This document shows, piece after piece, positions 3,763 through 32,000 of a stretch of DNA of 32,000 nucleotides. Source of the DNA: Mycoplasma mobile 163K (GTDB taxonomy: Bacteria > Bacillota_I > Bacilli_A > Mycoplasmatales > Metamycoplasmataceae); assembly GCF_000008365.1 (NCBI RefSeq), contig NC_006908.1:600001-632000 (forward strand), given 5' to 3'. Below the pieces are notes generated by a model that was not told the origin of the DNA, did no database searches, and worked only from the letters and a program-made list of their open reading frames with translations. The translations under genes and the position numbers were made by a program. The first letter of the stretch is position 1. Each line of letters starts with the position of its first letter.

Positions 3763-3838
3763 GCCATCTTAGCTCAGTCGGTAGAGCGCATCCATGGTAA
3801 GGATGAGGTCGCAGGTTCGATTCCTGTAGGTGGCACCA
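3763..3838 (+). tRNA. tRNA-Thr (anticodon GGU), 76 nt with encoded CCA
   Basis: Hand-folded cloverleaf. Acceptor GCCATCT/AGGTGGC (one G-U), D arm GCTC-AGTCGGTA-GAGC, anticodon arm CATCC-ATGGTAA-GGATG (anticodon GGT), 5-nt variable loop, T arm GCAGG-TTCGATT-CCTGT, discriminator A plus CCA. Confidence 0.93.
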
Positions 3839-6866: not shown

Positions 6867-7754
6867 ATGAGTATGAATAAAATTTTATTAATTGATGGAA
6901 ATCTTTTAGCCTTTAAATCTTTTTTTGCAACAGCTTATATAGGTTCATCTTTACAAACTTCCACTGGGATTCCTACTAATGCTGTGCACACTTTTATTAA
7001 TACTATTTTTAAATTGTTAAAAGAACTAAATCCAACTCATATTTTTGTTGCTTTTGATAAACCTGGAAAAACTTTTAGACACGAATTTTTTGAAGAGTAT
7101 AAAAGCAAAAGACAATCTACTCCAGATAGTTTAAAAGTCCAATTCATTTATATCAAACGTGTTTTAAGTAAAATGAGAATTTGTTGATTTGAAGAAAGTT
7201 TAATTGAAGCTGATGATTTAATTGCAACTTGAGTTTCAAAAATTAACACTTCAAAAGATGAAGTAATTGTTTATTCTTCTGATAAAGACTTATTGCAATT
7301 AGTTGCAAAAAATGTCTCTGTAATTTCAAAATGAGATAAAAATGAATATGTAATTGATAATGAAAACAATTTTTTTGAAAGGCATTCAATTTTTCCTAAT
7401 CAAATCCCAGATTTCAAAGCTCTTGCTGGTGATGCAAGTGATAATTACTTAGGAATTAGCGGAATCGGACCTAAAACTGCAATTAATTTATTAAGTGAGT
7501 TTCAAATCATTGAAAATTTATATGAAAATTTAGCAAATATAAAAAGTAAAAAAGTAAAAGAAGTTTTGGAATTAGAAAAAGACAAGGCTTTTTTGTATAA
7601 AAAAATTGCTAAATTAAAAACAGATGTGAATCTGAATTTTAGTTTAGAAGACATTAAATTGAGCTATAAATTTCAAAAAGAAGCTATGGAAATTTTTGAA
7701 GAGTTAGAAATGAAAAACACATCAAGCAAATACTTGAATGTGTTTAATTTATAA
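6867..7754 (+). CDS. 5'-3' exonuclease (Pol I N-terminal/FEN-like domain only, 295 aa)
   Basis: Track ORFs 6867..7187 and 7566..7754 share a frame and are joined across three in-frame TGA codons. Motifs: ILLIDGNLLAFKSFFA, FDKPGKTFRHEFFEEYKSKR, EADDLIAT, SSDKDLLQL and GDASDNYLGISGIGPKTA (H3TH). An SD-like AAAGGAG lies at 6851-6857. Confidence 0.9.
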
Positions 7755-9915
7755 TCTTTGAAATCGATGCATGATTTTTCAAAAGTGTCTTAGGCTGTTT
7801 TTTATTTGTAAAAAGCACTGTAATTTGACCTAAAGATTCTTCAAGAACAATTCCTTCTCCGAAAACTTTATGGACAATTTTGTCCCCTACAAAGATATCA
7901 TCATTATTTGTTTGATAATCTTTCATTAAATCTACTTGCTTATTCAAAAGTACAGAATTCATATATTGTTCCATTGTTTTTTGATTTTCATTTTCAAGAA
8001 CAATTCCCATTTCTCCAATAAATCTTGAAGTTTTTTTCTGAGTTTTAAAATTACCAAATAAATATCCATCAGAATCTGTTAAGAATAACATTTTTTTAGC
8101 TCTTGTGATTGCTACATAAGCTAATCTTCTTTCTTCTTCAAGATTTGAATCATCGAAGTCATTTTCTAAAGCTTTTTTAGAAGGCAAAATTTCTTCTGAT
8201 AAACCCACAAGAAAAACATAACTAAACTCCAATCCTTTACAATTATGAATGTTCATTAATGAAACCGTGTTTTTATCATCTTCTTGACTAGCATTTGGAA
8301 CTAGAGAAATTTCTTCAAAATAATCTTGAAATGTTTTTTTAGGATTATTTCTAAATCAGTTTGAAATGATGATTAATAATTCTTTAACATTATCTACTTT
8401 TCCATTTTTAAAAGTATCTTCATTTGCTAAATAATCATAATATTTAATATCTGCAAAAAATTCATCAACAGAAACTTGCACATTATTTTCATTAATAATT
8501 TTTTGATACTTATTGATTTTAAAAATAAGATCAAAAAGTTTTTCTCTAATATTAGATGAAACTGGTAGATCTTCTAGATGATTGTTTATTGCTTGGAAAA
8601 TGCTCAAATTACTTTCATCACAATAGTCTAAAATTTTATTTCTATAAATGTTACCAATACTTCTCTGAGGAATATTTAAAATTCTTTGAAAAGCTAGATC
8701 TGAATCACTGACTAATAATTTTATATATGAAAGAGCATTTTTTATTTCGCTTCTTTCATAAAATTTTTCTCCACCATGAACTTGGTGATGAATACTTTCT
8801 CTTAAAAGAGCATCTTCAAAATTTTTAGAATAAAAATTTGCTCGATAAATAATACTAATTTCGCTTAATTTTGCTTTTTCGATAGAAATCAATCATTTTA
8901 TTTTATCAACAACTCATCTTGCTTCTAATTCGGGACTAAGTGCGTGGTGAAATATTACTTCTTGACCTTGTTTTGTATAAGCAACTAAATCTTTTTCTAA
9001 TCTTTTTTTGTTGAAATGAATTAAAGAATTAGCGTGTTTTAAAATTTTTTCTGTTGAACGGTAATTTAGATTTAAATTGATTGTTTTTGCATTTTCAAAA
9101 TCCTTATGAAAATCTAAAATTAAATTTACATTTGCTCCTCTTCATGAATAAATAGTTTGATCTGGATCTCCTACAATAGTTAAATTATGATTTTGAGCTA
9201 AAGTTTTAATTATTTCATATTGAATTGGTGATGTGTCTTGAAACTCATCAACAAGAATGTACTTAAATCTTCTTGATCATTTAAGTTTAATTTCTGGAAA
9301 TTTTTCAAATAATTCTTGAGTTTTCAAAAGTAAATCATTAAAATCTAATAAAGCTAATTTTTTTAATATTTCATTATATTCCAAATAAATTTTTAGTTTT
9401 ATTCTATCATCTTCAGAATTATCTTCGGTTTCTAAAACTTCAATTGGAGTTTTGTTTATTTTGTGAAAAGAAATATAATTTATCATTGAAGTTAAAGTTA
9501 TATCAATTTTATTAATGTCAAATTTTTCATAAATATTTTTTAAGATATCAAATTGATCAGCGACGTCTAAAATTGTAAAATTTTTAGGATATTTTAGAAC
9601 ATCAATATCTCTTCTTAAAATATAAACACATAAAGCATGAAAAGTGCTTATTAAAGGTTCACTTTCATGATTATCGACAAGAGTTTTAATTCTTTCTTTC
9701 ATTTCGTTTGCAGCTTTATTTGTAAAAGTAACAGCAAGGATTTGATATGGCTTAACATTCATTTTTTGAATTAAATAAGCAATTTTGTGTACTAAAACTC
9801 TTGTTTTTCCACTACCTGCTCCTGCAATAATTCTTAAAGGTGAATCATTAAAAACAACAGCTAGTTTTTGATCTTTGTTTAAAGAATCTAATAGATTTTT
9901 TTCTGACTTTTCCAT
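7744..9915 (-). CDS. pcrA: ATP-dependent DNA helicase PcrA/UvrD (SF1A), canonical paralog, 723 aa
   Basis: Track ORFs 7744..8256, 8356..8892 and 9277..9915 share one frame. I translated both gaps and found only TGA, no TAA/TAG. Motifs: AGAGSGKT, VTFTNKAANEM, ILVDEFQDTS, VGDPDQTIYSWRGA, NYRS, LMNIHNCKGLEF, RRLAYVAITRAK, and a C-terminal VHKVFGEG module. SD AAGGAG lies 5 nt before the ATG. Confidence 0.93.
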
Positions 9916-9924
9916 AAAGACTCC

Positions 9925-11481
9925 TTAATTTCAAGTGTAATAATATTTAAGTGAAATAGATTTTTTCTGTTTTTCATTAATGTTAAAATCAGGGTTTTCA
10001 TACACTAATACTATTCCTCTTTTTTTAGCGACGTTTGCTAAATCTAGTAATCCAAAAATATTTTCAGAAACTCCTAATTTAGTTGCAATTTTTTCACTTA
10101 TAAAAAGATATTTTGGATTTATCGTATTTATTAACGAAAAAAGTGCAGGATCGATTTCTTCTACATAAATTCCATATCTTACATCTTCTTTTTCTAACTC
10201 TGTGAAAATATTTGAAATTTCATTAAAATTTTTTATGTCTATTTTTTTCAAAATGAAAATGTTTCTATTTAATTTTAGTTTTTCATAATGTTTTACTAGT
10301 TGATAATCATTTAGAAAATAAAAAGTATTTTCAAATAAATTATTTTCTAAAAAGAATTTTTCAAAAAAAGCATCCAAAACAATATTTCTATTATTTTCAT
10401 TTAATAAAATTTCTGTCATTCCTTCTTCATTATTTAATTTTGGAACAATAATCTTTGATATTTCTGAATTTTTACTATTCATTTTTGAAATATTTAAATA
10501 TTTAAAACTTACTTTTTTATTTTGAACATCTAAATAAAAATCAAGAATATTTTTCTTAAATAAATTAAATTTAGAAAAATTAACATCTCTTAATTTAAAA
10601 CCAAAAATTTCTTTTGATCTAATTGATTCTGTAATGGAAAATTGTAATCTTCTTAAAACTTTGTTTATATCTTCTTCAGTTTTAATTGATTTAGCTTCAA
10701 CATATCCAAGGCCATGGAAAAAATAGTCAAGAAAAAAAACTCTTTTACCTTTTTTTTCATATAAATCTAAAAAAGCTCTTTCTTTTCTTTCTAATCTTTT
10801 TAATTTTGAAGATTCAAAAACAATCACAACAACTGATCTAGATTGAAACAAATAAAATTTTTGAAAATGCAACATTTTTACTAAAGATCTAATTAAGGAT
10901 TTTGAAAAATCAAGATGATTTTTTTCAACATTAAAACCAAAAAAAACAGCATATTTAAGATCTTTTTTTAATAATTCTTCTTTTGATGTAAAAACAATTG
11001 ATTTATTATGTTCTTTTTCGATTATTTTATAAGATAAAATGCAATGAATAGTACTTTCATCTTCATAAATTAATTTAAAATCTCCAAAAATATTTTGATT
11101 TTTATTAGTTGGAACAAAAATATTTTCAAGATTAACTTTTAAGTCGCTAATATTATTATTTATATTTAAATTGTTTAATTTTGTAATAAAAATTTCATCT
11201 TTATTTAATTTAAAAAAGTTTTCAAATTCTCTAATTGGAATTCAAAATCCACTTAAGATATTTCTTGGTAAAGGTAAGACAATGTCATGTCTTATTAAAG
11301 GAATTAAATCTACAAGTCTAATTCTTCTTTTTTCTCTATCAAAAACAAAAGATAAAACATTTCTACTGTGGTTTTCTAAATTTTTCTTTTTTTCAAAAAG
11401 TACAATAAAAGCAATAAGTAAACTTATTACAATTAAAATTGATATGCTTGCAAAAATAGAAATAAAAACAATACTTAGCAT
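9925..11481 (-). CDS. Hypothetical membrane-anchored protein (518 aa), one N-terminal TM helix; C-terminal region with weak, degenerate EAL/TIM-barrel-like pattern
   Basis: Track ORFs 9931..10875 and 11242..11481 share a frame. I translated 10876-11241 and found no stop apart from TGA 11242-11244. The 3' end extends through TGA 9931-9933 to TAA 9925-9927. The N-terminus MLSIVFISIFASISILIVISLLIAFIVL is a TM helix. Confidence 0.7.
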
Positions 11482-11488
11482 GTGGTCC

Positions 11489-13717
11489 CTAATTTACTTT
11501 CTTTAATGATGGATGATTTTTTCTAATAGTTTTAGCTTCGTGAGGATGTCTAAATGCAATCGTTACAGTATCATCATTTATATCCATTATTGTTCCTTCA
11601 CCAAAAATGTCATGCATGACAATAAAACCTATTTCAAGTTCGCTTTCCTGATTTACATTCGGATCAACACTTAAATTAGAAGTGAATTGTTGAAGATCTA
11701 TTCCTATTTCATTTAAAAATCTACTTGGAGATTTTTTATATTTTAAATCTGAATTAAAAAAACCTTGAGAATCTGATAAAAATATTCTATCAACAGCTCT
11801 AGTTAAAGCAATATAAAATAATCTTCTTTCATTATCAATTAGATCACTTGAGCCTGTTTTTTCTAATTCTTCAATTGATTTAATATTAGGCCAAATATAT
11901 TCACTTAAACCTACAATAAAAACATTTTTAAATTGTGTTCCTTTAGAATGAATAGCTGAAATTAGTGAAACACTATTTTTGCTTAAAGGACTTTTGTATT
12001 TAGAAGAAATTAATGAAATCTCTTCTAAATAATCAGCTAAATTTTTATTTCTATTTGCATTTTCTCAAATTTTTATTGAATTTAAAAGTTCAAGAATATT
12101 TTTTTCTTTATCGCTACCTGCATCATCATCTTTTAAATAATCATAATATTTAACTTCTTCTAAAAAACCATGTAAAGATTTGTAAATTGGATATTTTTTA
12201 AGAGCATTACGATATTTTCTAAATGAATTTATTAAATTAACTAAATTTAATAAAATTGTCTTATTTTTAGTATTTCATTGCAACTTCATTTTAGAAGTAA
12301 CTTCTTTTTTAGTATCTTTAAATAAATTAATTAAAGCATCATAAATATTTTCATTTCTAGATTCTGCATATTCCAAAAGTTTTTTTTCAAAAGTAACAGA
12401 AACATCCCGATTAGGAACATTTAAAATTCTTAAAAAAGTTGTTGAAGATCCATCATGTAAAACTCTCAAAAAAGAAATACAATCTTTGATTTCATCACGC
12501 TCATAAAATTTATTATCATCCAAAATTTGAAAATTAATCTCTGCTTTTTCCAATTCATCTTCGAAACTTTTAGTATAAAAACTTGAACGATAAAAAATAG
12601 CAATATCTTTTAGTTGTACTTTATTTCTTTTTAATTTATTGATTTTATGAACAACTCATCTTGCTTCTGCATCTGTACTAAATGCTTGCTGATAAACAAT
12701 TTTTTCCTCTTCTAAATTTTGAGCTTCCATTTCTTTAATAGAACTTTCAAAACTAGTATTATTTTTTTTCATTAAATTATTAACAGCTTCAATAATTGAT
12801 TTATTTGAACGATAATTTTTATTTAAGTGAAAAATTTGAACATTAGGAAAATCTTCATGAAATTTAGACATATATTTAACATCAGTGTATTTTGGTGAAA
12901 AAATTGTTTGATTAGTGTCTCCAACAATCATAATTGGAGTTTTCATAGCTATTTTTTTTAATATTTCATATTCTTGAAAACCTAAATCTTGAAATTCATC
13001 TATTAAAATGTATGAAAAATATTGGCTTCATTTTTTTCTTATTTCAGGAAATTCAGATAATAGTTCAAATGTCTTAGTAACTAAATCTTCATAATCAATA
13101 CTTTTATTTTTTTCTAAGTATTTTTCATAAGACATATAAAATTCTGCTTTTAATTTTATTAAATCGTTTTTTGCTTCATTGTAAGAATCTTTTGGACTAA
13201 TATTTTTAATTTTATTAGCTGAAATAAAAGCAAAAATTTCATCTAATTTAACAGTTCCTTCTTTTAAATTTTTATGTCTAAAAATTTGTTGTAGCACTTG
13301 CTTTTTATCTGTATTATCAGTTAAAATAAAATCATTAGGCAAACCTAATTTATCAATATCTTCTCTTAAAATTTTTCCACAAAAAGTATAAAAAGTATGA
13401 ATATTTGTAGTTTTTTCAAAATCAAAACTAAAAAATCTTGAAATTCTGTTTTTCATCTCATCAACTGAATGTTCATTTAAAGTAATTACTAAAATTTTTT
13501 CATAATCAATTCCCAAAACAGATGATAAATAAGCATATCTTCTTGTTAAAACTTTTGTTTTACCACTACCAGCACTTGCTAGAACCTTTGAGCTAGTTTT
13601 TGAATTTAAAGTAACAATGCTTTTTTGAATGTCATTTAAGCCTTCTAAAAGTTTATCTTCAATTCTTGGCTCTTCATTCAATTCATTATTACTTTTTTTC
13701 ATATATGTCCTCTTCAT
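11489..13717 (-). CDS. UvrD/PcrA-family SF1 helicase, divergent second paralog (742 aa; alternative start ATG 13702 preceded by AAGAGGA)
   Basis: Track ORFs 12275..12553, 12656..12946 and 13028..13717 share a frame. I translated 11489-12277 and both gaps: TGA only, with the true stop TAG at 11489-11491. Motifs: ASAGSGKTKV, ILIDEFQD, VGDTNQTIF (motif III lacks the RGA), NYRS, AIHSKGTQF, RRLFYIALTRA, and C-terminal VMHDIFGEG. Confidence 0.88.
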
Positions 13718-22077: not shown

Positions 22078-22096
22078 AATATCTAGTGTTTTTTTA
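22065..22096. terminator. Bidirectional intrinsic terminator shared by the convergent DUF402 gene and the large helicase gene
   Basis: AAAAAACACTAG-AATAT-CTAGTGTTTTTTT: stem 22071-22077/22083-22089 flanked by an A-run and a T-run. It overlaps both stop codons (TAG 22075-22077 on plus, TAA 22094-22096 on minus). Confidence 0.65.
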
Positions 22097-25000
22097 TTTA
22101 AAATTAGTAATATGGTTATTAATTTCATCTAAAATATTTTGTTTGTTCAAGTATCAATCAATTTTTTTTATAATTTTTATTGGGTATTTTTTAGATCTAA
22201 TAAAATTAATTTGATCTTTGTCACTTACATAATTATAGTATGATTCATGATAATAATAATCATCTGCAAAAACAGCTAATAAAACTTGTTTTGTATTTTT
22301 ATCCATAATTGCCAAATCAATATTTTTAGTTCCTATTGTATAATTAATTTCCATTTCATACATTAAAAGATTTAATCTTTTACTTAAAGCATCATGAATA
22401 TTTTGAATAAATTCTTGGTTATTTTTAACAAATAAATGTTCTGTTAAAGTTCTAGTGATTTCAGAAACATTAATATAATTTCTTTGCTCTTTTGCACTTA
22501 AGTCTAAAAAGTTTAATCACTCTCTAAAAATAAATAAATCTTCTGGAGCATTTAAAGCATTAATGTCTTTAGCGTAAATTGATTTAACAACAATCATCTT
22601 ATCTTTAGCTCGACTGATAGCAACATTTAAAGCGTTTTTCCCACCTTTTTTTGCAACATAAGTTGAATGTAGTTTTGTTGTTGAATCATATGAAACTGAA
22701 GCAATAACTAAATCAGCTTCATCTCCTTGAATATTTTCAATATTTCTTAATAATAATTTTTCATTCTGAATAGCTTCTTCTAAATCTGGCATTGATTCAA
22801 AAATAGTTTTTTCTAAAAGATTTTGCTGCGAAGAGTTAAAACATAAAATAATAATTTTTTCATGTTTTTTTAATTCCTTAGCAGTAATTTCTAAAACAGC
22901 TTCAGCTTCAGCATGATTTTCACTATTTTCTCATTTACCATTAATATTAACAACTTCAATTGGTAAAAAAGCTTTTTCAGAATTAATGTCCAAAACATCC
23001 AATTCACCTTTATAAAAATGTTTGCTACTAAAAGTCATTAAGGCAGCATAATTTGAGCGATAATTCTTATCTAATAAAACATTATAAGTACCTTTAGTTG
23101 TTGCATAATCTAGTAAACTATCAATTCCACTTAAAAAGTTTTCATCTTCACCTTCAAATTTTTGGGCAAATCATCTTGTTGGCTGCATTTGTTGATCATC
23201 ACCTGCAAGAATTTTAATTTTAGCTAAATATAGAACAGGAAGTCCTTTTTCTAAAAAGATTTGCGAAGACTCATCTAAAATTGCATAATCAAATTCTTCT
23301 TTTTGTCAATACTTTAAATCTGTTTCAGGAGTAGTAATGATAATTGGAAATAAAATTTTAATAATTTTATAGTGAATATTGATAAATTTTTGTGGAGTTA
23401 AAAAACCTTTTCTTACACTGACTGTAAATTCACTATAAAGTTTTTTATATTCATCGTCAAAATTTTTGATTCGATTAATAATATTTTTAAAAATTAAAGC
23501 TTGGATTGATTCAATACTTGTAATTTCAACATTATTTTCATCAAATTTATATTTTGAAAAATTAGCAATTCCTAAAAGATGTTCTTTTTTAAATTCTTTT
23601 AACCTTATAATGGTTTCATTAATATTACCTTGAAAATCTTTTAATTCTTCTTTAATAACATTAAAAAACTTTTCAGCTTCATCATGACTTAATTTATTTT
23701 TCCCACGTTTAATTTCATTGTTGACTAAAAAACTTTTAATAGCTCTTCTTTTGTTTTCTTCAATAATTAAATCATTGTAGTTATAAGCAGGATCAAGTTT
23801 TAAAAATGATTCTAAAGTATTAGGATTAATTGAACTTGAATTTTCACTAATATAGCCTAAAAGATTTAAAATATTATCAAAATTTTCTAACTTAACAATT
23901 TTTTCTAAAATATCAATGTATTTTTTTTCTTCGGGAGAAATAATTCTAATTGGATCTTGAATTTTTGGAGAAGTAAAATTCTCTAATTCATTAATGTATT
24001 GTTGTAATGGCAAATAAAATTCTTTTTTATCCATTCCTTTTCCATTCAAGACAAAAATACAAAATATACTTAAATCTTCTAAACGATTTCTTAAAACTTC
24101 TAAAGCAGCTTTTTTTTGACTAACAACTAAAGCTGTTTTTTTATAAACTAAAATATTAGCAATAATATTACTAATTGTTTGTGATTTACCAGTCCCTGGA
24201 GGCCCTCAAATAATTGTATTTTGTAATAATGAACTTACAGTTGCTAAATCTTGGGAAAAGTTAGTTCTTTGAATTTTATAAAAATTAAAACTATCCTTAA
24301 AAATTACTGAAAGCACTTTATTTTTATAAGAATTTTTATCAAAATCAATTTTTAAAATATCATCAATTTCATCACGGTCAATAATGTCTTGCAAATTTTG
24401 TCTAATTGAATCTCCTGAAGAATCAAAAATTCCTAAAACTACCCCACGATGAAATTCAATTCCTTTATTATTAATTTCTTCAGCTCTTTTGTTTATAAAA
24501 GGTCCATAAATTTCAGGTAATTGATAACCTAAATTTCATGCTCTCATTAACGAAGAAATAAATTCATCTGGAATAATTTTTTCTTCTGAATTTTCACGAT
24601 AATTAAAATTAGTCAAAAAACCTTCGCTTTTTAAAAGAAAAAATAATTTATGATTAATTTTATATTCATTACTTGCAGATAAAACTAAGCTACCTGCTTT
24701 AATATTTAAATAAGCTTCTCTTAAAAAAATTGGAGCATAATAAACTCTTTTTGGAGTTCTAAAACTAATAAAATGTGAAGCTAATTGTAAAGGTCAAATA
24801 TTTGATTCAGTATTAATTTCATTAGCTCTATTAATAAAAATTTTTCACTTTGAAATTCATTTTTGTCCTTTAGTTTCTCAAGAATCAATTAAAGATTTTT
24901 TAGCATTAACAAAATCATTTTGCAAAGCATTAACAATTAATTGAGATAATCTTTGGTTATTAGCATGATAAATCGCTTGAATTTCTTCAATAGTTCTTGC

Positions 25001-25267
25001 TTCAATCAAACGATCTATAATATAAGGGATATCAACATCTTTAATAGCAATATCTAAATCTTGTTTTTTAACAACATGAGTTTGTACTTCAATACCAAAT
25101 TTTAAAAACACATCAAAATAGTTTTCATTATCTATTTTGGTAAAAATTGTTGCATCTTTATTAGAAATACTTAGTAAATTGTTTAATAGAGAGCTATATT
25201 TTTTTCGATTTTCAATTATTTTTAATTTTGCTTCTTCTGAAAGATTTTGATTATCAAAGGTATTCAT
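22094..25267 (-). CDS. Large SF1 (Upf1-like, AAA_11/AAA_12-type) helicase with DUF4011-like N-terminal region and C-terminal Vsr/DUF559-like endonuclease-fold domain (1057 aa); Hhe-like architecture
   Basis: Five track ORFs (22154..22363, 22517..22792, 23306..24049, 24206..24394, 24878..25267) share one frame. I translated all four gaps and the 3' extension: TGA only, stop TAA 22094-22096. Motifs: Walker A WGPPGTGKSQTI (24182-24205), motif II ILDESSQ (23261-23275), AGDDQQMQPT, DKNYRSN, IQGDEADLVIASVSYD, NALNVAISRAKDKMIVV. The C-terminus reads NIDLAIMDKNTKQVLLAVFADDYYYH...IRSKKYPIKIIKKIDW. Confidence 0.85.
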
Positions 25268-25787: not shown

Positions 25788-26789
25788 ATGGAAAATGATA
25801 AAAAAAGAGTTGTTAGCGCAATTACTGCAACAGGTTCTTTAACACTAGGAAATTATCTTGGAGCAATTAAAAATTTAATAAAGATGCAAAATGAATTTGA
25901 TTTATTTGTTTTTGTTGCAGATTTGCATGCTCTAACTAATGAAATCGATCCTAAAATTTTAGAAAAAAATCGGAAAGAGGTTTTTGCTTTATATTTAGCT
26001 TGTGGTTTAGATAATAGAAAAATTGCCTTATTTTTTCAAAGTGATATTTTATTTCATTCAGAAATGAATTGATTAATTTTAACGCAAACTAATTTAGGTG
26101 AACTAAATCGGATGACTCAATTTAAAGATAAATCTAAAGGTGTTAAAGCTGCTAATAATACAATTCAAGTTCCAACTGGACTTTTAATTTATCCTACTTT
26201 AATGGCAGCAGATATTCTTTTATATAATCCTCATTTTGTTCCTGTTGGTCAAGATCAAAAACAACATTTAGAATTAACACAAAATATTGCTAAAAGATTA
26301 AATTTTAAATTTAAAACTAATTTTAATATTCCTGAAGTAATTATTCCTAAAGTGGGTGCTAAAATTATGGACTTACAAAATCCTGAAAAAAAGATGTCAA
26401 AATCTTCACTTTCACAAAAAGGAACAATTTTTCTTTTAGATAAACCTACTGAAGCTTATAAGAAAATTCTTTCAGCAATAACTGATAGTGAAAATAAAAT
26501 TTATTATGATTTAAAAAATAAAAAGGGAATTAGTAATTTATTAACTATTTATGCTGGACTAAGTAATATTAGCATTACTCAAGCTGAAAAGATGTTTAAA
26601 GATGAAAACTATAAAACTTTTAAAGAAAGTGTTGCAACTAAAGTAAAAGAATTTCTTGAAGAAATTCAACTATCTTATAATACTTGAATTAATCAAGTAG
26701 AAATTGAAAGATATTATGGCGTTGAAAAAGCAAATGAAGTTGCAAAACAAACTATTTTAAAGCTTAAAAAGAAAATGGGACTTAAATAA
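25788..26789 (+). CDS. trpS: Tryptophan--tRNA ligase (333 aa)
   Basis: Track ORFs 25788..26072 and 26112..26687 plus a 3' extension, all in one frame and joined by TGA. Motifs: TGSLTLGNYLG (HIGH-like region), YPTLMAADILLY, VPVGQDQKQHLELT and KMSKS. Stop TAA 26787-26789. Confidence 0.95.
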
Positions 26790-27880
26790 TGATTGCTGAA
26801 CTAGAAATCATTTTCTATTCACAAAAAGGTGAAGGAGTAGGTTTTTATTTAAATAAACCTACTTATGTAAAAGGTGTCATTAAAGGCGAAAAAATTAAAG
26901 CTTTTATTTATTTAGAAAGTGCTTCATTTTTTAAAGCAAGATTAGTAGAGATATTAATTGAAAGTAAAAATCGAAATCATGATGTTCCTAAATTGCATTA
27001 TTTAATTGGTGGTTATGAATTATTACATATGAATAATACTGAACAAATTAATTTTAAAAAAGAAAGAGTTATTAATGATTTTAAAAAAATTGCTAATTAT
27101 GAAATTAGTAGCCTTGAATTAGTTCAAGGTAAAAAACTTTTACATTATCGCAATAAAATTACTTTACATTATGGGAGTCTTTATTTAGCTAATAGTAATC
27201 ATAAAATTAAATTAGCTAAATCTTTACTTACAGATATTAATTTAAAAGCAAATAAAAAAGAAGCAGAGTGAATAATTCGAAAATTAGATACCCAAATTGA
27301 AGGAACAAAGCAAACTAAAATTTATACAACAGATAAAATGAATGGAATTACTTTTAGAGTTGGGCTAAATTCTTTTTATCAAGTAAATAAAGAAGTAGCT
27401 AATCTTATTTATAATCAAATTAGTGAATTTATTAATTTAAATGAAAATGTTTTAGATCTCTATTCCGGAATAGGAACAATTAGTCTTTTAATTGCTGCTA
27501 AAGCTAAAAGTGTTACTGGAGTTGAAAGAAATTTAGATTCAATTGAAGATGCTAATTTTAATAAAGAATTTAATAAAATTAAAAATGTTAATTTTATTCA
27601 TCAAGATGTAATTAAATATTTAAAACAAAATAAAACTTATTTTGATACAGTTATTGTCGATCCTGCAAGAAGAGGATTAGAAGAAGATATTATTGAATTA
27701 ATTTTAAAACTTAAACCACAAAAAATTATTTATCTCTCTTGTAATGTTGGAACTCAAGCATCTAATTTTAATAAATTTAAGCATGAATATCAAATTGAAT
27801 TTATTAAATCTTATGATATGTTTCCACAAACATATCATATTGAGTCATTGATGGTGTTAAAAAAATTAAATAAACAGTAA
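26789..27880 (+). CDS. TrmA/RumA-family SAM-dependent RNA (uracil-5)-methyltransferase (363 aa)
   Basis: Track ORFs 26789..27271 and 27338..27880 share a frame across TGA. The N-terminal part is TRAM-like. Motifs: FYQVN, DLYSGIGTISL (SAM motif I), VDPARRG, and IIYLSCNVGTQASN (catalytic Cys). The ATG overlaps the trpS stop (TAATG). Confidence 0.85.
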
Positions 27881-27941
27881 TAATTCGAATTATATTGATG
27901 TAAAATTTTGATATCAAATATAGATAGGACTAAAGTATTTT

Positions 27942-28799
27942 ATGGACCAAATAAAAGCAAGAACAATTGAAATTTTTCTACCAACAGGAGATTCCAAAGA
28001 AGTTTCTCAAGCAATAATTACAAATGAATCTATTAAAATAATATATATTTCAAAATCGGAAATAGAAAATCAAAAAAAGAGAATTAGTAAAATTCAGGGG
28101 TGTTATATATTGGTAGGAAAAGATGATGATGGGAGTGATTTAGCTTATATTGGGCAAACTGAAGACTTTTTTCAAAGATTAAATTTACACAAAAAAGAAA
28201 AGGAGTTTTGAGATGGTGTATATGTAATTCAAAATTCTTCAGATTCTTTTGACCAAGCTCACCTTAATTTTCTAGAAAAATTAATGATACAAGAAGCAAA
28301 AAAAGTGAAAAATTACAAATTAGAAAATGTAAAAGATGGAAATAATTTTTCGATTTCAGAGTCTAAAGAAAATGAATGTTATTTGTATTTTTCAACTATT
28401 AAAACTTTATTAAAAACACTTGGATTTGATTTATTTGTGCCTAATGTTGAAGAATTTGAAATAAACGAAGAAAATAAATTTTATTTTAAGGAAAAAAACA
28501 ATAATTTTAGCGGTGAGGCAATATTTGAAAATGACAAATTGATTGTTCTGAAAAATTCAATTGTTTCAAATGAAGAAAATGTCAAGGATAATTACATTCA
28601 ATATTTAAAATTTAGGAATAAATTAATTAATGAAGGTGTTATTCAAAAAAACAATGAAAATCTTATTTTTATTAAAGATTATCCTTTCAATTCTCCTAGT
28701 GTTGCAGCAGGTGTTATTTCTTTAAAAAGTAAAAATGGATGAGAGGTTTGAAAAAACATAGAAGGTGAATCATTAGATAAAAAATATAGACAAAAATAA
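27942..28799 (+). CDS. GIY-YIG nuclease domain protein with C-terminal DUF4357-like domain (285 aa)
   Basis: Track ORFs 27942..28211 and 28284..28742 plus a 3' extension share one frame; the gaps contain only TGA. The GIY-YIG region is GCYILVGKDDDGSDLAYIGQTEDFFQRLNLH...LNFLEKLMIQEA. The C-terminal FNSPSVAAGVISLKSKNGWEVWK matches the DUF4357 SPS...NGW..WK signature. Confidence 0.8.
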
Positions 28800-28888
28800 A
28801 ACAAAATCTAATTGAATTAATAAATTGCATAATGATTATTAAAATCAAAAGTAATTTAAGAATATAATTTATATAAAGGGAGGTAAAT

Positions 28889-29017
28889 ATGAATTCAAAA
28901 AATAACCAAAAGAGTAATGTTAATAACTCAAATAAAACAACTCCAGATAAAAATAATACAGATTATAAAAATAAAATTGACAACAAATCAAACCAAAAAA
29001 ATCCTAATAAAAAATAA
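28889..29017 (+). CDS. Putative small basic N/K-rich peptide (42 aa)
   Basis: MNSKNNQKSNVNNSNKTTPDKNNTDYKNKIDNKSNQKNPNKK. It is preceded by the strongest SD I noticed in the window (AAAGGGAGG, 6 nt before the ATG) and by TATAAT at 28863-28868. Its low-complexity composition makes it uncertain. Confidence 0.4.
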   Translation: MNSKNNQKSNVNNSNKTTPDKNNTDYKNKIDNKSNQKNPNKK

Positions 29018-29055
29018 ATTTTAATTTAATTAAATTTATTTAACTTTATATTTTT

Positions 29056-29086
29056 AAAATTTATATACATGTTGTATATAAATTTT
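29056..29086. repeat. Perfect 14-bp inverted repeat with 3-nt spacer (hairpin/operator or terminator of the small ORF)
   Basis: AAAATTTATATACA-TGT-TGTATATAAATTTT; the arms at 29056-29069 and 29073-29086 are exact reverse complements. Confidence 0.7.
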
Positions 29087-29143
29087 CATTTTAAACCAGA
29101 AAATGAATTTTACTTATTGTATACTCATATTTTAAAAATACCC

Positions 29144-29201
29144 AAATATGATATATTTATTAAAATATAATCAAAATATGATATATTTATTAAAATATAA
29201 T
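29144..29201 (+). repeat. Two-copy tandem direct repeat (28 nt identical, 30-nt period), each copy carrying a TATAAT box, immediately upstream of gene 29215
   Basis: AAATATGATATATTTATTAAAATATAAT at 29144-29171 recurs exactly at 29174-29201. TATAAT lies at 29166-29171 and 29196-29201. The second copy ends 13 nt before ATG 29215, with AAAGGA between. Confidence 0.9.
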
Positions 29202-29214
29202 GTAAAAGGAATAT

Positions 29215-29772
29215 ATGGTAAATCACACACAAGTAAATTCAAGCAATTCACATCCTATAAATAATGTTATAAGTTATAATGATAGAAGAAAATCAACTAA
29301 ACTTTTAAGAATTTCAATTATAAGTACAATTTTTGCTATTTTAACAATTGTATTTTCAATTTTAGCTTCTCAAAATTTATTAGTAATTTTTAATTCAGGA
29401 ATAAATACAGGAATAAGGAATTTATTTGATTTTATTGGAAATATGCCAGCTATTATTAGTGGTGCTACTACAGGTAATCTTAATATTCCTAATATTCCTG
29501 ATGTAAATGCTTTATTAACTTTAATAACAAATAATATTTCTGGAATTATTTCTGGATCAATATTTGCAATTTTAGGAATAATCTTTTTTATAATCTTTTT
29601 TATTCAATGAATTATTATTGTTATAAAAATCTTTATAACTCGTTGAGATTTAAAATGAGCTAGAAGATGAAGACTTTTATTTGGATTTCTTTCACTATTA
29701 ATAATTTTTTCTATAAGTGGAATTATTTATGCAAGCTTAATAAAACTCCTTTCAAGAAAATTGAATAGTTAA
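29215..29772 (+). CDS. Hypothetical small integral membrane protein (185 aa, about 3 TM helices)
   Basis: Track ORF 29215..29610 extends through four in-frame TGA codons (…FFIQWIIIVIKIFITRWDLKWARRWRLLFGFLSLLIIFSISGIIYASL…) to TAA 29770-29772. Hydrophobic helices: ISIISTIFAILTIVFSILA, GSIFAILGIIFFIIFFIQWIIIVI, LLFGFLSLLIIFSISGIIYA. Confidence 0.7.
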
Positions 29773-29774
29773 TT

Positions 29775-29799
29775 AAATATTGCTTTAGGCAATATTTTT
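29775..29799 (+). terminator. Intrinsic terminator after the membrane-protein gene
   Basis: AAATATTGC-TTTAG-GCAATATTT followed by TT. The 9-bp stem starts 3 nt after the stop codon. Confidence 0.55.
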
Positions 29800-29989
29800 A
29801 TATTCCGATAAAGTGCTTATTATTTAAGAAATACTATTTTAAAATTTATGAAATGAGCAAAAATGTTTTATCATTATATTTAATAAAAAGTAAAAACAAA
29901 ATATTTATTATTTCAACAAAATTAGTATGTAAAACATTAAATATAAAAGTTAAAAGATAATATTATCAAACAATAAGGGAAAATAAATT

Positions 29990-31570
29990 ATGATAAAAAA
30001 AATTTCTAACGATGCTACATACGAAATTTCATCAATTTTTTGTGGTGATAAAAATGAATTTTTTGAATATAAAACTCTCTCAAAATTATTTGAATTTTTC
30101 AATCATTATTTCAATATGAACGACTCTATAAATTTTTATACAGCAATATCTAGGAAAAATTATGTTAATGATAAATTAAAATGGTTAATTGAAAAAGATA
30201 AAATTAATGAATTTTTTGATGTTATTCTTAGTGTTGAATATATACAAAAAGAAGAAAAAGCATTTGAAATATCTGATACTGAAGCATTTGAAAAATCAAA
30301 AAAAATTCTTATTAAATTGAACAATATTTTTAAAAAAGATTTTTATTTAATTGTTAAAAAAAATAATAAATTTTATTTAGAGCATAAAAATGATGAATTA
30401 GTTACTTTAGGTTCAGGAGGGTTTGCTGAAATTTTTAAAGTTAACTCTTCTGGAAGAATTTTAAAAAAATTAAAAAAAGAATTTTGATTAGATAATAAAA
30501 TTGTAAGTAGATTTAAAAGAGAATTTGAGATAATGAAAGATATTCAAAATATAGATGGAATTATTAAAGTTTTTGATTTTTCCTCATCTGATAATAGCTA
30601 TACAATGGAATTTGGAGGAATTACCCTTTATGAACATGTTGAAAATAATAATTTTTCTGAAGAAATTAAATTAAAATATGTTGAAAAAATTTTGAATATA
30701 GTTTCAGAAGTTCATAAGAGAAAATATATTCATAGAGATTTAAGTCCTTCAAATATTTTTATAAATAATGAGAATATTAAAATTGCAGATTTTGGCTTAG
30801 GTAAAAATATTGATTTATTAAAAAATCATTCGCACAAAACAAATAGTACAAAAGATTTAGGACAAATGTATTATTGTGCTCCTGAACAATTAAAATCTTT
30901 AGGTGATGGAACTGCTAAAAGTGATGTTTTTTCTTTAGGTAAAATAATAAATTTTATTTTTAATAAATCGCCTCAGGAAAACGAACACATTTTGAAAAAT
31001 TTAGTAGAAAAATCTACTATAAACGAACCAGATAAAAGATTTTCTGACTCAACAGCGATGCTTTATTCTTTTAAAGATTCTCAAGACCTTTCAAAATATA
31101 AAAAAATTAAAGAAATTGCTTTGGAAAAAATTAAAAATTCAGAATTTGATGATAATGTTAAATTTTTTATCGATTTTTTATCCACGGAAGAAATTTCAAA
31201 ATATTTACTCAATAAAGAGTATCTTATTGATATTAAATTAGTTAATAGTAGTCTTTTAAAGTTTATGAATTTAAGTGAAAATAATGCTTTAAAAATAATT
31301 AAAGGAGTTGAAATGAAATATAAGAAACTATGTGAAATAGTTTCAAAAAGAGATAATGTTAAAATATTCGATTTATATGATAATTTCGCTCTTTTTTCTT
31401 ACATTATATTAAGTGAAAAAGAGGGTTTGTTTCCACTAGAAGTAAGAGAATATGCTGCAAACATATTGAAATATGTAGCATTTGATGTATGAAGATACAA
31501 AGCCCAGAATTTTATAGAGGAATTAAAATTTAATGATATTGATGAAACAACAAAAAATTTATTAAATTAA
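29990..31570 (+). CDS. Hanks-type Ser/Thr protein kinase with unknown N-terminal (~140 aa) and C-terminal (~210 aa) domains, no TM segment (526 aa)
   Basis: Track ORFs 29990..30487 and 30533..31492 plus a 3' extension share one frame and are joined by TGA. Kinase motifs in order: G-loop LGSGGFAEIF (~30407-30436), ILKKLKK (beta3 Lys), REFEIM (alphaC Glu), HRDLSPSN (30731-30754), ADFGLG (DFG 30788-30796), YCAPEQ (APE 30878-30886), SDVFSLG, DKRF. SD-like AAGGGA lies upstream. Confidence 0.85.
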
Positions 31571-31669
31571 ATTCAATTGAAATTTTGATAGAATAATTTA
31601 TGAGTAAAGATTTGCTTGATTCGTTTCATTAAGTAATGCTTAAAATAATTATCTATAAGGGGGTATTAA

Positions 31670-32000
31670 ATGACAAGTATTAAACACTTGCTAATAAATG
31701 CAAAAAAATATGATCAAAAAGAATTTGAAATTAAAGCGTGAGTTGCTTCCAATCGTGGAAATACTAATATTAGATTTGTTGAAATTAATGATGGTTCTAC
31801 AATTAAAAATTTACAAGTAGTAATTAAAAAAGAAATAATGAGTTTTTTGGAAGTTGATAAAATTAGACTTGGTGCTGCAATTCATGTTAAAGGTGTTTTA
31901 AAATATACTCCAGGTATGGCTCAAGAAATTGAATTAAATGCTGATAAATTTATTTTATTAAAAAATACAGATGAAGACTTTCCAATTCAAAAGAAAGAAA
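31670..32000 (+). CDS. asnS: Asparagine--tRNA ligase, N-terminal 110 aa (continues beyond window end)
   Basis: ATG 31670 is preceded by AAGGGGG. MTSIKHLLINAKKYDQKEFEIKAWVASNRGNTNIRFVEINDGSTIKNLQVV is the typical AsnRS N-terminal OB-fold anticodon-binding region; the W is TGA. Confidence 0.8.

What the first reader, a model, noticed from the sequence alone, without database searches (positions are those of the whole stretch)
27881..31669. Loosely packed four-gene islet (GIY-YIG/DUF4357 nuclease, basic micropeptide, 3-TM membrane protein, three-domain Ser/Thr kinase) between an RNA methyltransferase and asnS: candidate uncharacterised defence or signalling module
Elsewhere in the window genes abut or overlap. 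Here four same-strand genes are separated by long AT-rich spacers (89, 197 and 217 nt), each with promoter-like TATAAT boxes, hairpins or terminators. None of the four is a recognisable housekeeping gene. The islet combines a nuclease often seen in defence islands, a membrane protein, and a cytosolic Hanks kinase with two unknown flanking domains. That resembles sensor/effector abortive-infection logic, but it matches no named system I know. The flanks are core genes (trpS plus m5U methyltransferase on the left, asnS on the right).
Basis: inference. Interest (0 to 1): 0.7.

Follow-up and report, generated by a model that had tools for sequence, protein, structure and literature searches.

The report
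Two single-gene phage-defence genes, side by side
The 3.7-kb islet in Mycoplasma mobile is not a new four-gene system: it holds a kinase of the known Stk2 suicide-defence family and a candidate defence nuclease (PADLOC PDC-S14), each working alone elsewhere, with two genes unique to this species between them.

Summary
Read with code 4 (TGA=Trp), four same-strand ORFs lie between the m5U methyltransferase and asnS. Their spacers (61/89/197/217/99 nt) are longer than elsewhere in the window (median 7.5 nt, p=0.0016).

The window is [Mycoplasma] mobile 163K. The 526-aa kinase matches the PADLOC Stk2 profile end to end (E=8e-150). Stk2 is a characterised single-gene abortive-infection kinase of staphylococci. 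All catalytic residues are intact, and both "unknown" flanking domains are conserved across the family. The 285-aa GIY-YIG/DUF4357 protein matches PADLOC candidate PDC-S14 over its full length (E=6e-76).

Relatives of each gene occur alone, never together, in 12 kinase loci and 13 nuclease loci. They sit in restriction-modification operons, plasmids, conjugative elements and prophages. The membrane protein has no credible relative among 1.84 billion representatives. The 42-aa peptide matched no family and no fetched locus.

What remains is a small defence islet with two independent modules. The indel test could not be run because no close relative is available. Verdict: new member of known kinds, modest interest.

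The parts
27942..28799 (+). GIY-YIG / DUF4357(RAMA) protein, 285 aa; PADLOC candidate PDC-S14; GenBank AAT27989, named 'Expressed protein' in UniRef
   Evidence: PDC-S14 profile PDLC04925 E=6e-76, residues 5-281 against 15-294 of 301. DUF4357 E=2e-21; GIY-YIG Pfam match below threshold (17.7 bits, cut-off 22.6). 43 of 51 family members hit PF01541 at E<=0.01. Family-invariant Y55, Y69, G71, R79, H83, E112, N129. All three invariant Trp residues are TGA codons.
28878..28883 (+). GGGAGG Shine-Dalgarno-like site, 5 nt before the small ORF
   Evidence: It is the only GGGAGG on either strand of the 32-kb window.
28889..29017 (+). 42-codon ORF encoding an Asn/Lys-rich basic peptide; coding status uncertain
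   Evidence: No hit in Pfam, PADLOC, NCBIfam or PHROGs. No relative in any fetched locus. Called as a gene in public assemblies of the same strain. ORFs of this length are common by chance here: 67 ATG-ORFs of at least 42 codons in the window. The strong ribosome-binding site is the only support.
29056..29086 (+). 14-bp AU-rich hairpin followed by a U-run; terminator-like, probably ends a nuclease + small-ORF transcript
   Evidence: -10.1 kcal/mol, z=-4.0, 0 of 200 shuffles fold as well.
29140..29197 (+). 30-bp tandem duplication (two copies, 93% identical) just upstream of the membrane gene
   Evidence: the repeat finder family D12.
29215..29772 (+). 185-aa membrane protein with three hydrophobic stretches; found only in this species (GenBank AAT27991)
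   Evidence: phmmer against 1.84 billion representatives returned itself plus one weak partial hit (E=3.6e-5 over 72 residues). No family hit. Hydrophobic stretches 28-61, 106-145 and 152-180. A 185-codon ORF is very unlikely by chance at this composition (about 1e-6 per start). GC3 of 0.06 is typical of genes here.
29775..29797 (+). 10-bp hairpin followed by a U-run, 3 nt after the membrane gene stop; terminator-like, separates the membrane gene from the kinase gene
   Evidence: -7.9 kcal/mol, z=-2.7, 1 of 200 shuffles folds as well.
29990..30343 (+). Kinase residues 1-118: helical N-terminal domain, conserved across the family, no known fold relative
   Evidence: AF2 model pLDDT about 78-96 per 10-residue block. 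Invariant G19, K28, F36, F37, S54, R55. No Pfam or PDB sequence match.
30344..31039 (+). Kinase residues 119-350: Hanks-type Ser/Thr kinase core
   Evidence: Pkinase E=5e-28. Invariant K159, E178, H248-R249-D250, N255, D267-F268-G269, A297-P298-E299, R350. Foldseek top hits are PknB, PknA and Stk1. Activation loop 271-290 is disordered and carries invariant T284 and T287.
31040..31570 (+). Kinase residues 351-526 plus stop: all-helical C-terminal domain, conserved across the family, no known fold relative
   Evidence: AF2 model pLDDT about 76-97 per 10-residue block. Invariant M426, D464, E487, A489, A497, R502. No Pfam or PDB match below E=0.01. The whole protein matches Stk2 profile positions 3-498 of 500, E=8e-150.
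26789..27880 (+). Left flank: RNA m5U methyltransferase (core gene, not part of the islet)
   Evidence: PF05958 E=7e-21.
31670..32000 (+). Right flank: asnS, runs off the window (core gene, not part of the islet)
   Evidence: 447-aa product with tRNA_anti-codon and tRNA-synt_2 domains in the extended locus L105.

Best explanation
The islet is a small chromosomal defence islet in Mycoplasma mobile. It holds two unrelated genes that each work alone, plus two genes found only in this species. It is not one four-gene machine.

(1) The 526-aa protein belongs to the Stk2 family of abortive-infection kinases. In the staphylococcal founder, a phage protein activates the kinase. The kinase then phosphorylates many essential host proteins, and the infected cell dies before phage is released. 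By inference the same happens here. The conserved helical N- and C-terminal domains would hold the kinase off and sense the trigger. Activation would go through the invariant Thr284/Thr287 of the activation loop.

(2) The 285-aa protein joins a GIY-YIG nuclease core to a C-terminal DUF4357/RAMA domain. That domain is also found fused to type IV restriction enzymes. By inference the protein is a restriction-like or suicide nuclease. In most other bacteria sampled it lies next to type I restriction-modification genes, most often between hsdS and hsdR. In M. mobile it stands alone.

(3) The 42-aa peptide and the 185-aa membrane protein have no relatives anywhere. They are separated from the kinase gene by terminator-like hairpins. 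They are best read as lineage-specific genes that share the permissive spot.

Shown: family membership, intact catalytic residues, independent distribution, full adaptation to the host code and composition. Inferred: the trigger, the targets, and defence activity in M. mobile.
For: Kinase:
- Stk2 profile E=8.3e-150, residues 7-525 against profile positions 3-498 of 500.
- All 61 aligned relatives hit the same profile, best 2.6e-226.
- The nearest relatives are about 42% identical over 99% of the length. The few that carry a source name are Clostridium, Lachnospiraceae, Anaerolineaceae and Phascolarctobacterium, none a Mollicute.
- Catalytic residues are invariant and present.
- AF2 model has pLDDT 87 and three domains.

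Kinase relatives sit alone in varied mobile or defence settings:
- between hsdS and hsdR (L090-L094) or just after hsdR (L003);
- beside a DNA methylase, a helicase and a TIR protein;
- in a conjugative element or next to a transposase;
- on a Lactococcus plasmid between IS6 and an AlwI-type system;
- on viral contigs and in PHROG 4972.

Literature: Stk2 is a single-locus, phage-protein-activated abortive-infection kinase (PMC6532042, PMC9146914, PMC11341870).

Nuclease:
- PDC-S14 E=6e-76 over the full length.
- More than 4000 relatives of about 285 aa.
- 10 of 13 loci lie next to type I R-M genes.
- DUF4357 is reported fused to GmrSD and McrB homologues (PMC4619093, PMC11090510).

Independence of the four genes:
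- No locus holds both families or a relative of the other two ORFs.
- The membrane protein has no credible relative among 1.84 billion representatives.
- Hairpins follow the small ORF and the membrane gene.
Against: - No experiment shows defence in M. mobile, and I know of no M. mobile phage.
- The genes show no sign of recent acquisition. GC and GC3 match the rest of the window, and conserved Trp residues are TGA codons.
- No integrase, tRNA or flanking repeat marks a mobile element.
- The indel test could not be run.
- I could not align the kinase directly with the S. epidermidis RP62A Stk2 protein. Membership rests on the PADLOC profile that carries its name.
- PDC-S14 is an unvalidated candidate. 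In one Pseudomonas panel it was not enriched in phage-resistant strains (PMC10855318).
- The GIY-YIG assignment rests on a sub-threshold Pfam match plus motif conservation. Foldseek against the PDB found no significant match.
- A lineage-specific functional link between the kinase and the neighbouring membrane protein cannot be excluded from sequence.
Confidence: 0.7

Rival explanations
1. The four genes form one integrated sensor/effector system. The kinase senses infection and acts through the membrane protein, the peptide and the nuclease.
For: - The four genes share a strand and lie next to each other.
- All are non-housekeeping.
- The small ORF has the strongest ribosome-binding site in the window.
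- No terminator-like hairpin lies between the nuclease gene and the small ORF.
Against: - Kinase and nuclease relatives never co-occur in 25 loci.
- Each family is full-length and self-sufficient elsewhere.
- The membrane protein and the peptide have no relatives, so no conserved partnership can exist.
- Terminator-like hairpins separate the units.
- Stk2 is documented as a single-locus system (PMC11341870).
Confidence: 0.06
2. Domesticated genes. The kinase has been taken over as a housekeeping signalling kinase in M. mobile, standing in for PrkC. The nuclease serves DNA repair or recombination. Neither now acts in defence.
For: - Both genes are kept intact in a reduced 777-kb genome, between core genes.
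- Both are fully adapted to code 4 and to host composition.
- UniRef names the nuclease 'Expressed protein'.
Against: - The kinase keeps every family-invariant residue of the N- and C-terminal domains that define Stk2.
- No phosphatase partner lies nearby.
- There is no PASTA domain or membrane anchor.
- Relatives are found almost only in defence or mobile contexts.
Confidence: 0.14
3. Orphaned guards of a restriction system. Both genes derive from cargo carried inside type I restriction-modification operons, the slot that the anticodon nuclease PrrC occupies. They are triggered when a phage anti-restriction protein blocks the restriction complex. In M. mobile they either work with a type I system elsewhere in the genome or have lost that partner.
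For: - Nuclease relatives sit in the order hsdM-hsdS-[gene]-hsdR in 7 of 13 loci, often overlapping hsdS by 4 bp. Ten of 13 lie next to type I R-M genes.
- Kinase relatives sit in the same slot in L090-L094 and just after hsdR in L003.
- PrrC and Ronin set the precedent for restriction-linked suicide effectors released by anti-restriction proteins (bioRxiv 10.1101/2023.04.06.535777).
Against: - No hsd gene or remnant lies in the window or within 10 kb to the right.
- Four of six independent kinase contexts are not type I operons.
- Sharing a slot may only reflect a general tendency of defence genes to insert into R-M operons.
Confidence: 0.1

Closest known systems
Stk2 abortive-infection Ser/Thr kinase of Staphylococcus epidermidis RP62A and S. 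aureus (PADLOC PDLC02375)
   Same: - End-to-end profile match (E=8e-150, 3-498 of 500 positions).
- About 500-aa cytosolic single protein with a central Hanks kinase core and intact catalytic residues.
- Relatives occur as stand-alone genes in mobile elements and defence islands.
   Different: - The host is a wall-less Mollicute that uses code 4.
- The gene lies between core genes rather than in an SCCmec-type cassette.
- It is only about 42% identical to its nearest relatives.
- The trigger is unknown.
- It was not compared directly with the staphylococcal protein.
PADLOC phage-defence candidate PDC-S14 (GIY-YIG / DUF4357 single protein; reported to overlap candidate GAO_29)
   Same: - Full-length match to several PDC-S14 profiles (best E=6e-76).
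- Same size and domain order.
- Same invariant Y-Y-G-R-H-E-N set.
   Different: - In 10 of 13 relatives examined the gene lies next to type I R-M genes, and in 7 of them between hsdS and hsdR. In M. mobile it has no hsd neighbour.
- The family itself has never been validated experimentally.
PrrC (and Ronin): suicide effectors embedded in or linked to type I restriction-modification loci
   Same: Relatives of both islet genes occupy the same position between hsdS and hsdR that prrC occupies. This suggests a back-up role behind restriction.
   Different: - There is no sequence relationship to PrrC or RonA.
- In M. mobile no hsd genes lie nearby.
- The guard logic is untested for either family.
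PrkC/PknB/Stk1 PASTA kinases (housekeeping Hanks kinases of Firmicutes and some Mollicutes)
   Same: The catalytic core has the same fold. The top Foldseek hits are PknB, PknA and Stk1.
   Different: - No transmembrane segment and no PASTA repeats.
- It scores 95 bits against a 450-bit cut-off.
- It has N- and C-terminal helical domains that PrkC lacks.
- The catalytic loop reads HRDxSxxN, with an invariant Ser.

Membership tests
Stk2 abortive-infection kinase | Full-length similarity to the Stk2 profile, covering the regions on both sides of the kinase core | tested here: met
   PADLOC PDLC02375 E=8.3e-150, residues 7-525 against 3-498 of 500. All 61 relatives hit the same profile.
Stk2 abortive-infection kinase | Catalytically competent Hanks-type kinase core | tested here: met
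   K159, E178, HRD 248-250, N255, DFG 267-269, APE 297-299 and R350 are present and invariant in 61 sequences. Pkinase E=5e-28. Foldseek hits PknB and Stk1.
Stk2 abortive-infection kinase | Single-gene system without a conserved partner, found in mobile or defence contexts | tested here: met
   Six independent contexts of relatives have different neighbours: R-M operons, a conjugative element, a transposase, a plasmid, a TIR protein. [quoted passage not shown]
Stk2 abortive-infection kinase | Direct sequence similarity to the founder protein of S. epidermidis RP62A | not tested
   The founder sequence could not be obtained with these tools. Membership rests on the PADLOC profile that bears its name.
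Stk2 abortive-infection kinase | Activation by a phage protein, followed by killing of the infected cell | not testable with these tools
   Needs phage challenge and phosphoproteomics.
PADLOC PDC-S14 (GIY-YIG / DUF4357) | Full-length match to PDC-S14 profiles | tested here: met
   PDLC04925 E=6.1e-76 (5-281 against 15-294 of 301). Four further PDC-S14 profiles also match.
PADLOC PDC-S14 (GIY-YIG / DUF4357) | C-terminal DUF4357 domain | tested here: met
   PF14267 E=2.4e-21, 75.9 bits against a 38.4-bit cut-off. Present in 51 of 51 relatives.
GIY-YIG nuclease superfamily | GIY-YIG catalytic domain (Tyr, Tyr, Gly, Arg, Glu and Asn on a beta-beta-alpha-beta-alpha core) | tested here: inconclusive
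   For:
- PF01541 scores 17.7 bits, below the 22.6-bit cut-off.
- 43 of 51 relatives match at E<=0.01.
- Y55, Y69, G71, R79, H83, E112 and N129 are invariant.
- The model shows beta-beta-alpha-beta-alpha at residues 53-122.

Against:
- Foldseek against the PDB gives nothing below E=0.09.
- A profile search of PDB sequences finds no nuclease.
PADLOC PDC-S14 (GIY-YIG / DUF4357) | Anti-phage activity | not testable with these tools
   The family is a candidate only, 'characterization remains to be done' (PMC10855318).
PrkC/PknB PASTA kinase (housekeeping) | Transmembrane segment, extracellular PASTA repeats, and a score above the family cut-off | tested here: not met
   NF033483 scores 95.1 bits against a 450-bit cut-off, over residues 139-319 only. 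The highest 19-residue hydropathy is 1.09, so there is no membrane segment.
Multi-gene defence system (the proposed four-gene module) | Co-occurrence of the component genes in other genomes | tested here: not met
   No locus among 12 with the kinase and 13 with the nuclease holds both, or a relative of the membrane protein or the peptide. The membrane protein has no credible relative.
PrrC-like effector embedded in a type I R-M operon | Gene located between hsdS and hsdR of a type I system | tested here: not met
   Met for relatives but not in M. mobile. No hsd similarity was found anywhere in the window (all E>0.03), and there are no hsd genes within 10 kb to the right.

The most novel reading that the evidence does not exclude
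Stk2-family kinases and PDC-S14 nucleases could both be back-up 'guards' of type I restriction systems. They would be carried between hsdS and hsdR, as PrrC is, and released when a phage anti-restriction protein disables the complex. The M. mobile islet would then be a pair of such guards that have lost their restriction operon, or that answer to one elsewhere in the genome. That would make it a minimal-genome example of restriction-independent (Ronin-like) suicide defence.
Probability: 0.15. Interest if true: 0.6.

Novelty: new member of a known kind. Interest (0 to 1): 0.3.

Why it matters
For this genome, two vaguely annotated genes gain precise, testable roles: an abortive-infection kinase and a restriction-associated nuclease. 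The proposed new four-gene system drops away.

It is mildly notable that a 777-kb, code-4 genome keeps at least two, possibly three, defence-type genes in intact form. All family-conserved Trp residues of the nuclease are encoded by TGA, which argues that the genes are used.

The by-product may have wider value. Both families repeatedly occupy the PrrC slot inside type I restriction-modification operons. This suggests a concrete experiment on what triggers Stk2-type kinases and PDC-S14 nucleases.

Tried and rejected
- **Junction/indel comparison.** A genome-collection scan with trpS returned no close relative of M. mobile (best 54% identity). No Mollicute locus had the methyltransferase or asnS within 10 kb. 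The test could not be done.
- **Remnants of hsd genes.** tblastn with 23 neighbour proteins of the relatives, mostly HsdM, HsdS and HsdR, found nothing in the islet (E>=0.2 there; best anywhere in the window 0.03).
- **Mobile-element marks.** The only tRNA lies at 3763-3838, and no convincing flanking repeats were found.
- **Structured RNAs in the long spacers.** Rfam found none at E<=1.
- **Promoter boxes.** They are no more frequent than in shuffled sequence.
- **Fold confirmation of the nuclease.** Foldseek against the PDB gave no significant hit, and the profile search of PDB sequences found none.
- **Founder protein and paper.** The original Stk2 paper (PubMed 27667697) is not held, and the founder sequence could not be obtained.
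- **Strain variation.** Public assemblies that hold the kinase are 100% identical to the window, so there is no polymorphism to test selection.

Full report
**Reading the region.** Under the standard bacterial code every gene in the region breaks at TGA. The window has 24% GC, and table 4 restores intact trpS, methyltransferase and other genes. The exact kinase, nuclease and membrane proteins are on record from [Mycoplasma] mobile 163K, whose genome is one 777,079-bp contig.

With table 4 the layout is:
- trpS 25788-26789
- m5U methyltransferase 26789-27880
- 285-aa protein 27942-28799
- 42-codon ORF 28889-29017
- 185-aa membrane protein 29215-29772
- 526-aa kinase 29990-31570
- asnS from 31670

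**The observation.** The spacers are 61, 89, 197, 217 and 99 nt, exactly as reported. Same-strand spacers elsewhere in the window have a median of 7.5 nt (Mann-Whitney p=0.0016). The spacers are AT-rich, at 11-22% GC.

Promoter-like boxes carry no information in this composition: 36 were found against 37.3 +/- 6.5 in shuffles. The strict terminator scan found none. Two AU-rich hairpins followed by U-runs do fold better than shuffles:
- 29056-29086, after the small ORF: -10.1 kcal/mol, z=-4.0
- 29775-29797, three bases after the membrane gene: -7.9 kcal/mol, z=-2.7

No such hairpin follows the nuclease gene. The likely transcription units are therefore nuclease plus small ORF, membrane gene, and kinase. 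Rfam finds nothing in the spacers.

**The kinase.** It matches the PADLOC Stk2 profile from residue 7 to 525, over positions 3-498 of 500, with E=8.3e-150. So the "two unknown flanking domains" are part of a known family architecture.

- A search of 5.8 billion proteins found 427 relatives. The best are about 502 aa long and 38-44% identical over 97-100% of the length. The few that carry a source name are Clostridium, Lachnospiraceae, Anaerolineaceae and Phascolarctobacterium, none a Mollicute.
- All 61 aligned relatives hit the Stk2 profile.
- The alignment shows the full catalytic set as invariant and present in M. mobile: K159, E178, HRD 248-250, N255, DFG 267-269, APE 297-299, R350.
- Invariant positions also occur in the N-terminal domain (G19, K28, F36, F37, S54, R55) and the C-terminal domain (M426, D464, E487, A489, A497, R502).
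- An AlphaFold model (pLDDT 87) gives a helical N-terminal domain, a kinase core and an all-helical C-terminal domain. The activation loop (271-290) is disordered and carries invariant T284 and T287.
- Foldseek matches only kinase cores: PknB, PknA, Stk1.
- The flanking domains have no Pfam or PDB relative.
- It is not a PrkC orthologue. It scores 95 bits against a 450-bit cut-off over the core only, and it has no hydrophobic segment.

Stk2 is described as a single-locus abortive-infection system of S. epidermidis and S. aureus. A phage protein activates it, and it kills the cell by phosphorylating many core proteins (PMC6532042, PMC9146914, PMC11341870). In RP62A it lies within the SCCmec cassette (PMC10055296).

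**The nuclease.** It matches five PADLOC PDC-S14 profiles, the best at E=6e-76 over the full length.

- Pfam gives DUF4357 (E=2e-21), a weak RAMA match, and a sub-threshold GIY-YIG match.
- A profile search found more than 4000 relatives of about 285 aa. The few named ones are Variovorax and Alcaligenaceae.
- 43 of 51 relatives give the same weak GIY-YIG match.
- Y55, Y69, G71, R79, H83, E112 and N129 are invariant.
- From my own knowledge of the superfamily, this matches the order and approximate spacing of the catalytic residues of I-TevI. I did not test that here.
- The model (pLDDT 82) has a beta-beta-alpha-beta-alpha unit at residues 53-122.
- Foldseek and the profile search of PDB sequences gave no significant nuclease match. 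I therefore rate the fold assignment as probable, not proven.
- DUF4357 is reported fused to GmrSD and McrB-type restriction proteins (PMC4619093, PMC11090510).
- PDC-S14 itself is uncharacterised (PMC10855318).

**Are the four genes a unit?** I examined the contexts of relatives of each family.

Kinase relatives were seen in six independent contexts:
- between hsdS and hsdR of type I operons (five contigs)
- directly after hsdR
- beside a DNA methylase, a helicase and a TIR protein
- in a conjugative element
- beside a transposase
- on a Lactococcus plasmid between IS6 and an AlwI-type system

Nuclease relatives were seen in 13 loci:
- 7 in the order hsdM-hsdS-[gene]-hsdR, often overlapping hsdS by 4 bp
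- 3 more next to type I genes
- 2 after very large helicase or ATPase genes
- 1 with no evident partner

tblastn of all four islet proteins against every fetched locus found no locus with both families. It also found none with a relative of the membrane protein or the peptide.

The membrane protein returned only itself and one weak partial hit among 1.84 billion representatives. The peptide has no hit in any family library. Both larger families also have full-length PHROG families and occur on viral contigs.

The four genes therefore do not travel together.

**Status of the two small genes.** The 185-codon ORF is very unlikely to be open by chance at this composition (about 1e-6 per start). 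It has gene-like codon-position GC. It is probably a real, lineage-specific membrane protein.

The 42-codon ORF could be chance: 67 ATG-ORFs of that length or more occur in the window. However, it is preceded at 5 nt by the only GGGAGG in the 32 kb. It is also called as a gene in public assemblies of this strain. I leave it as uncertain.

**Origin.** Nothing marks a recent insertion.
- GC and GC3 of the islet genes match their neighbours.
- The three family-invariant Trp residues of the nuclease are all TGA codons.
- There is no integrase, no tRNA at the borders and no flanking repeat.
- There is no hsd remnant.

The phyletic pattern still suggests old horizontal acquisition, since the nearest relatives are non-Mollicutes at 35-42% identity. 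The decisive indel test was impossible. The genome collection holds no close relative (best trpS 54%), and gene order around trpS is not conserved in other Mollicutes.

**Mechanism.** The most likely reading is two independent single-gene defence modules at about 0.7 confidence.
- For the kinase: a phage trigger is sensed through the conserved flanking domains, the activation loop is phosphorylated, host proteins are broadly phosphorylated, and the cell arrests or dies. The staphylococcal founder is documented. The rest is inferred for M. mobile.
- For the nuclease: a GIY-YIG cutter is directed or gated by a DUF4357/RAMA nucleic-acid-binding domain. This is inferred.

Three rivals remain:
- domestication as a housekeeping kinase (0.14)
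- orphaned PrrC-like guards of a type I system (0.10), supported by the shared slot in other genomes and by the PrrC/Ronin precedent
- the four-gene module (0.06)

**Verdict.** The "unnamed four-gene system" resolves into a known system (Stk2), a catalogued candidate (PDC-S14) and two genes unique to this species. It is a new member of known kinds, of modest interest.

Noticed in passing
window 22094-25267 (- strand): A 1057-aa protein with an SF1 helicase (AAA_11/AAA_12) and a C-terminal MTES_1575 restriction-endonuclease-like domain. It matches PADLOC candidate PDC-S37 (E=4e-69, partial) and Hhe (E=9e-42). It may be a third defence-type gene, 2.7 kb left of the islet, separated from it by trpS and the methyltransferase.
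   Followed up: partly
loci L086, L087, L097, L098, L100, L106, L111 (nuclease family); L090-L094, L003 (kinase family): Relatives of both islet genes, in different genomes, sit in the position between hsdS and hsdR of type I restriction-modification operons. That is the slot PrrC occupies. Ten of 13 nuclease loci lie next to type I genes. I found no paper describing this for Stk2 or PDC-S14.
   Followed up: partly
window 28878-28883: The only GGGAGG on either strand of the 32-kb window lies 5 nt upstream of the ATG of the 42-codon ORF. It is a stronger ribosome-binding site than that of any annotated gene in the window.
   Followed up: partly
window 29140-29197: A 30-bp tandem duplication (two copies, 93% identical) lies in the 197-nt spacer just upstream of the membrane gene. 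Its function is unknown.
   Followed up: no
kinase residues 248-255 and 284/287 (window 30731-30754, 30839-30850): The whole Stk2 family has an invariant HRDxSxxN catalytic loop, with Ser where Hanks kinases usually have Lys. It also has two invariant threonines in the disordered activation loop.
   Followed up: no
window 27942-28799: All three Trp residues that are invariant in the nuclease family (W90, W267, W270) are encoded by TGA in M. mobile, and the gene has no TGG. This shows full adaptation to code 4. The gene could not be expressed in a standard-code host without recoding.
   Followed up: yes
window 7744-13717 (- strand): Two UvrD/PcrA-like helicase paralogues (723 and 742 aa) flank a 518-aa ORF that has an N-terminal hydrophobic segment and no Pfam or PADLOC hit.
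   Followed up: no
loci L102, L103 (IMG/VR contigs): Stk2-family kinases, one full-length and one partial, occur on viral contigs. Both the kinase and the nuclease have full-length PHROG families of unknown function: phrog_4972 and phrog_12629.
   Followed up: no
loci L005-L084: Gene order around trpS is not conserved between M. mobile and any other Mollicute fetched. The closest trpS is only 54% identical. M. mobile is too isolated for synteny-based tests with this collection.
   Followed up: yes
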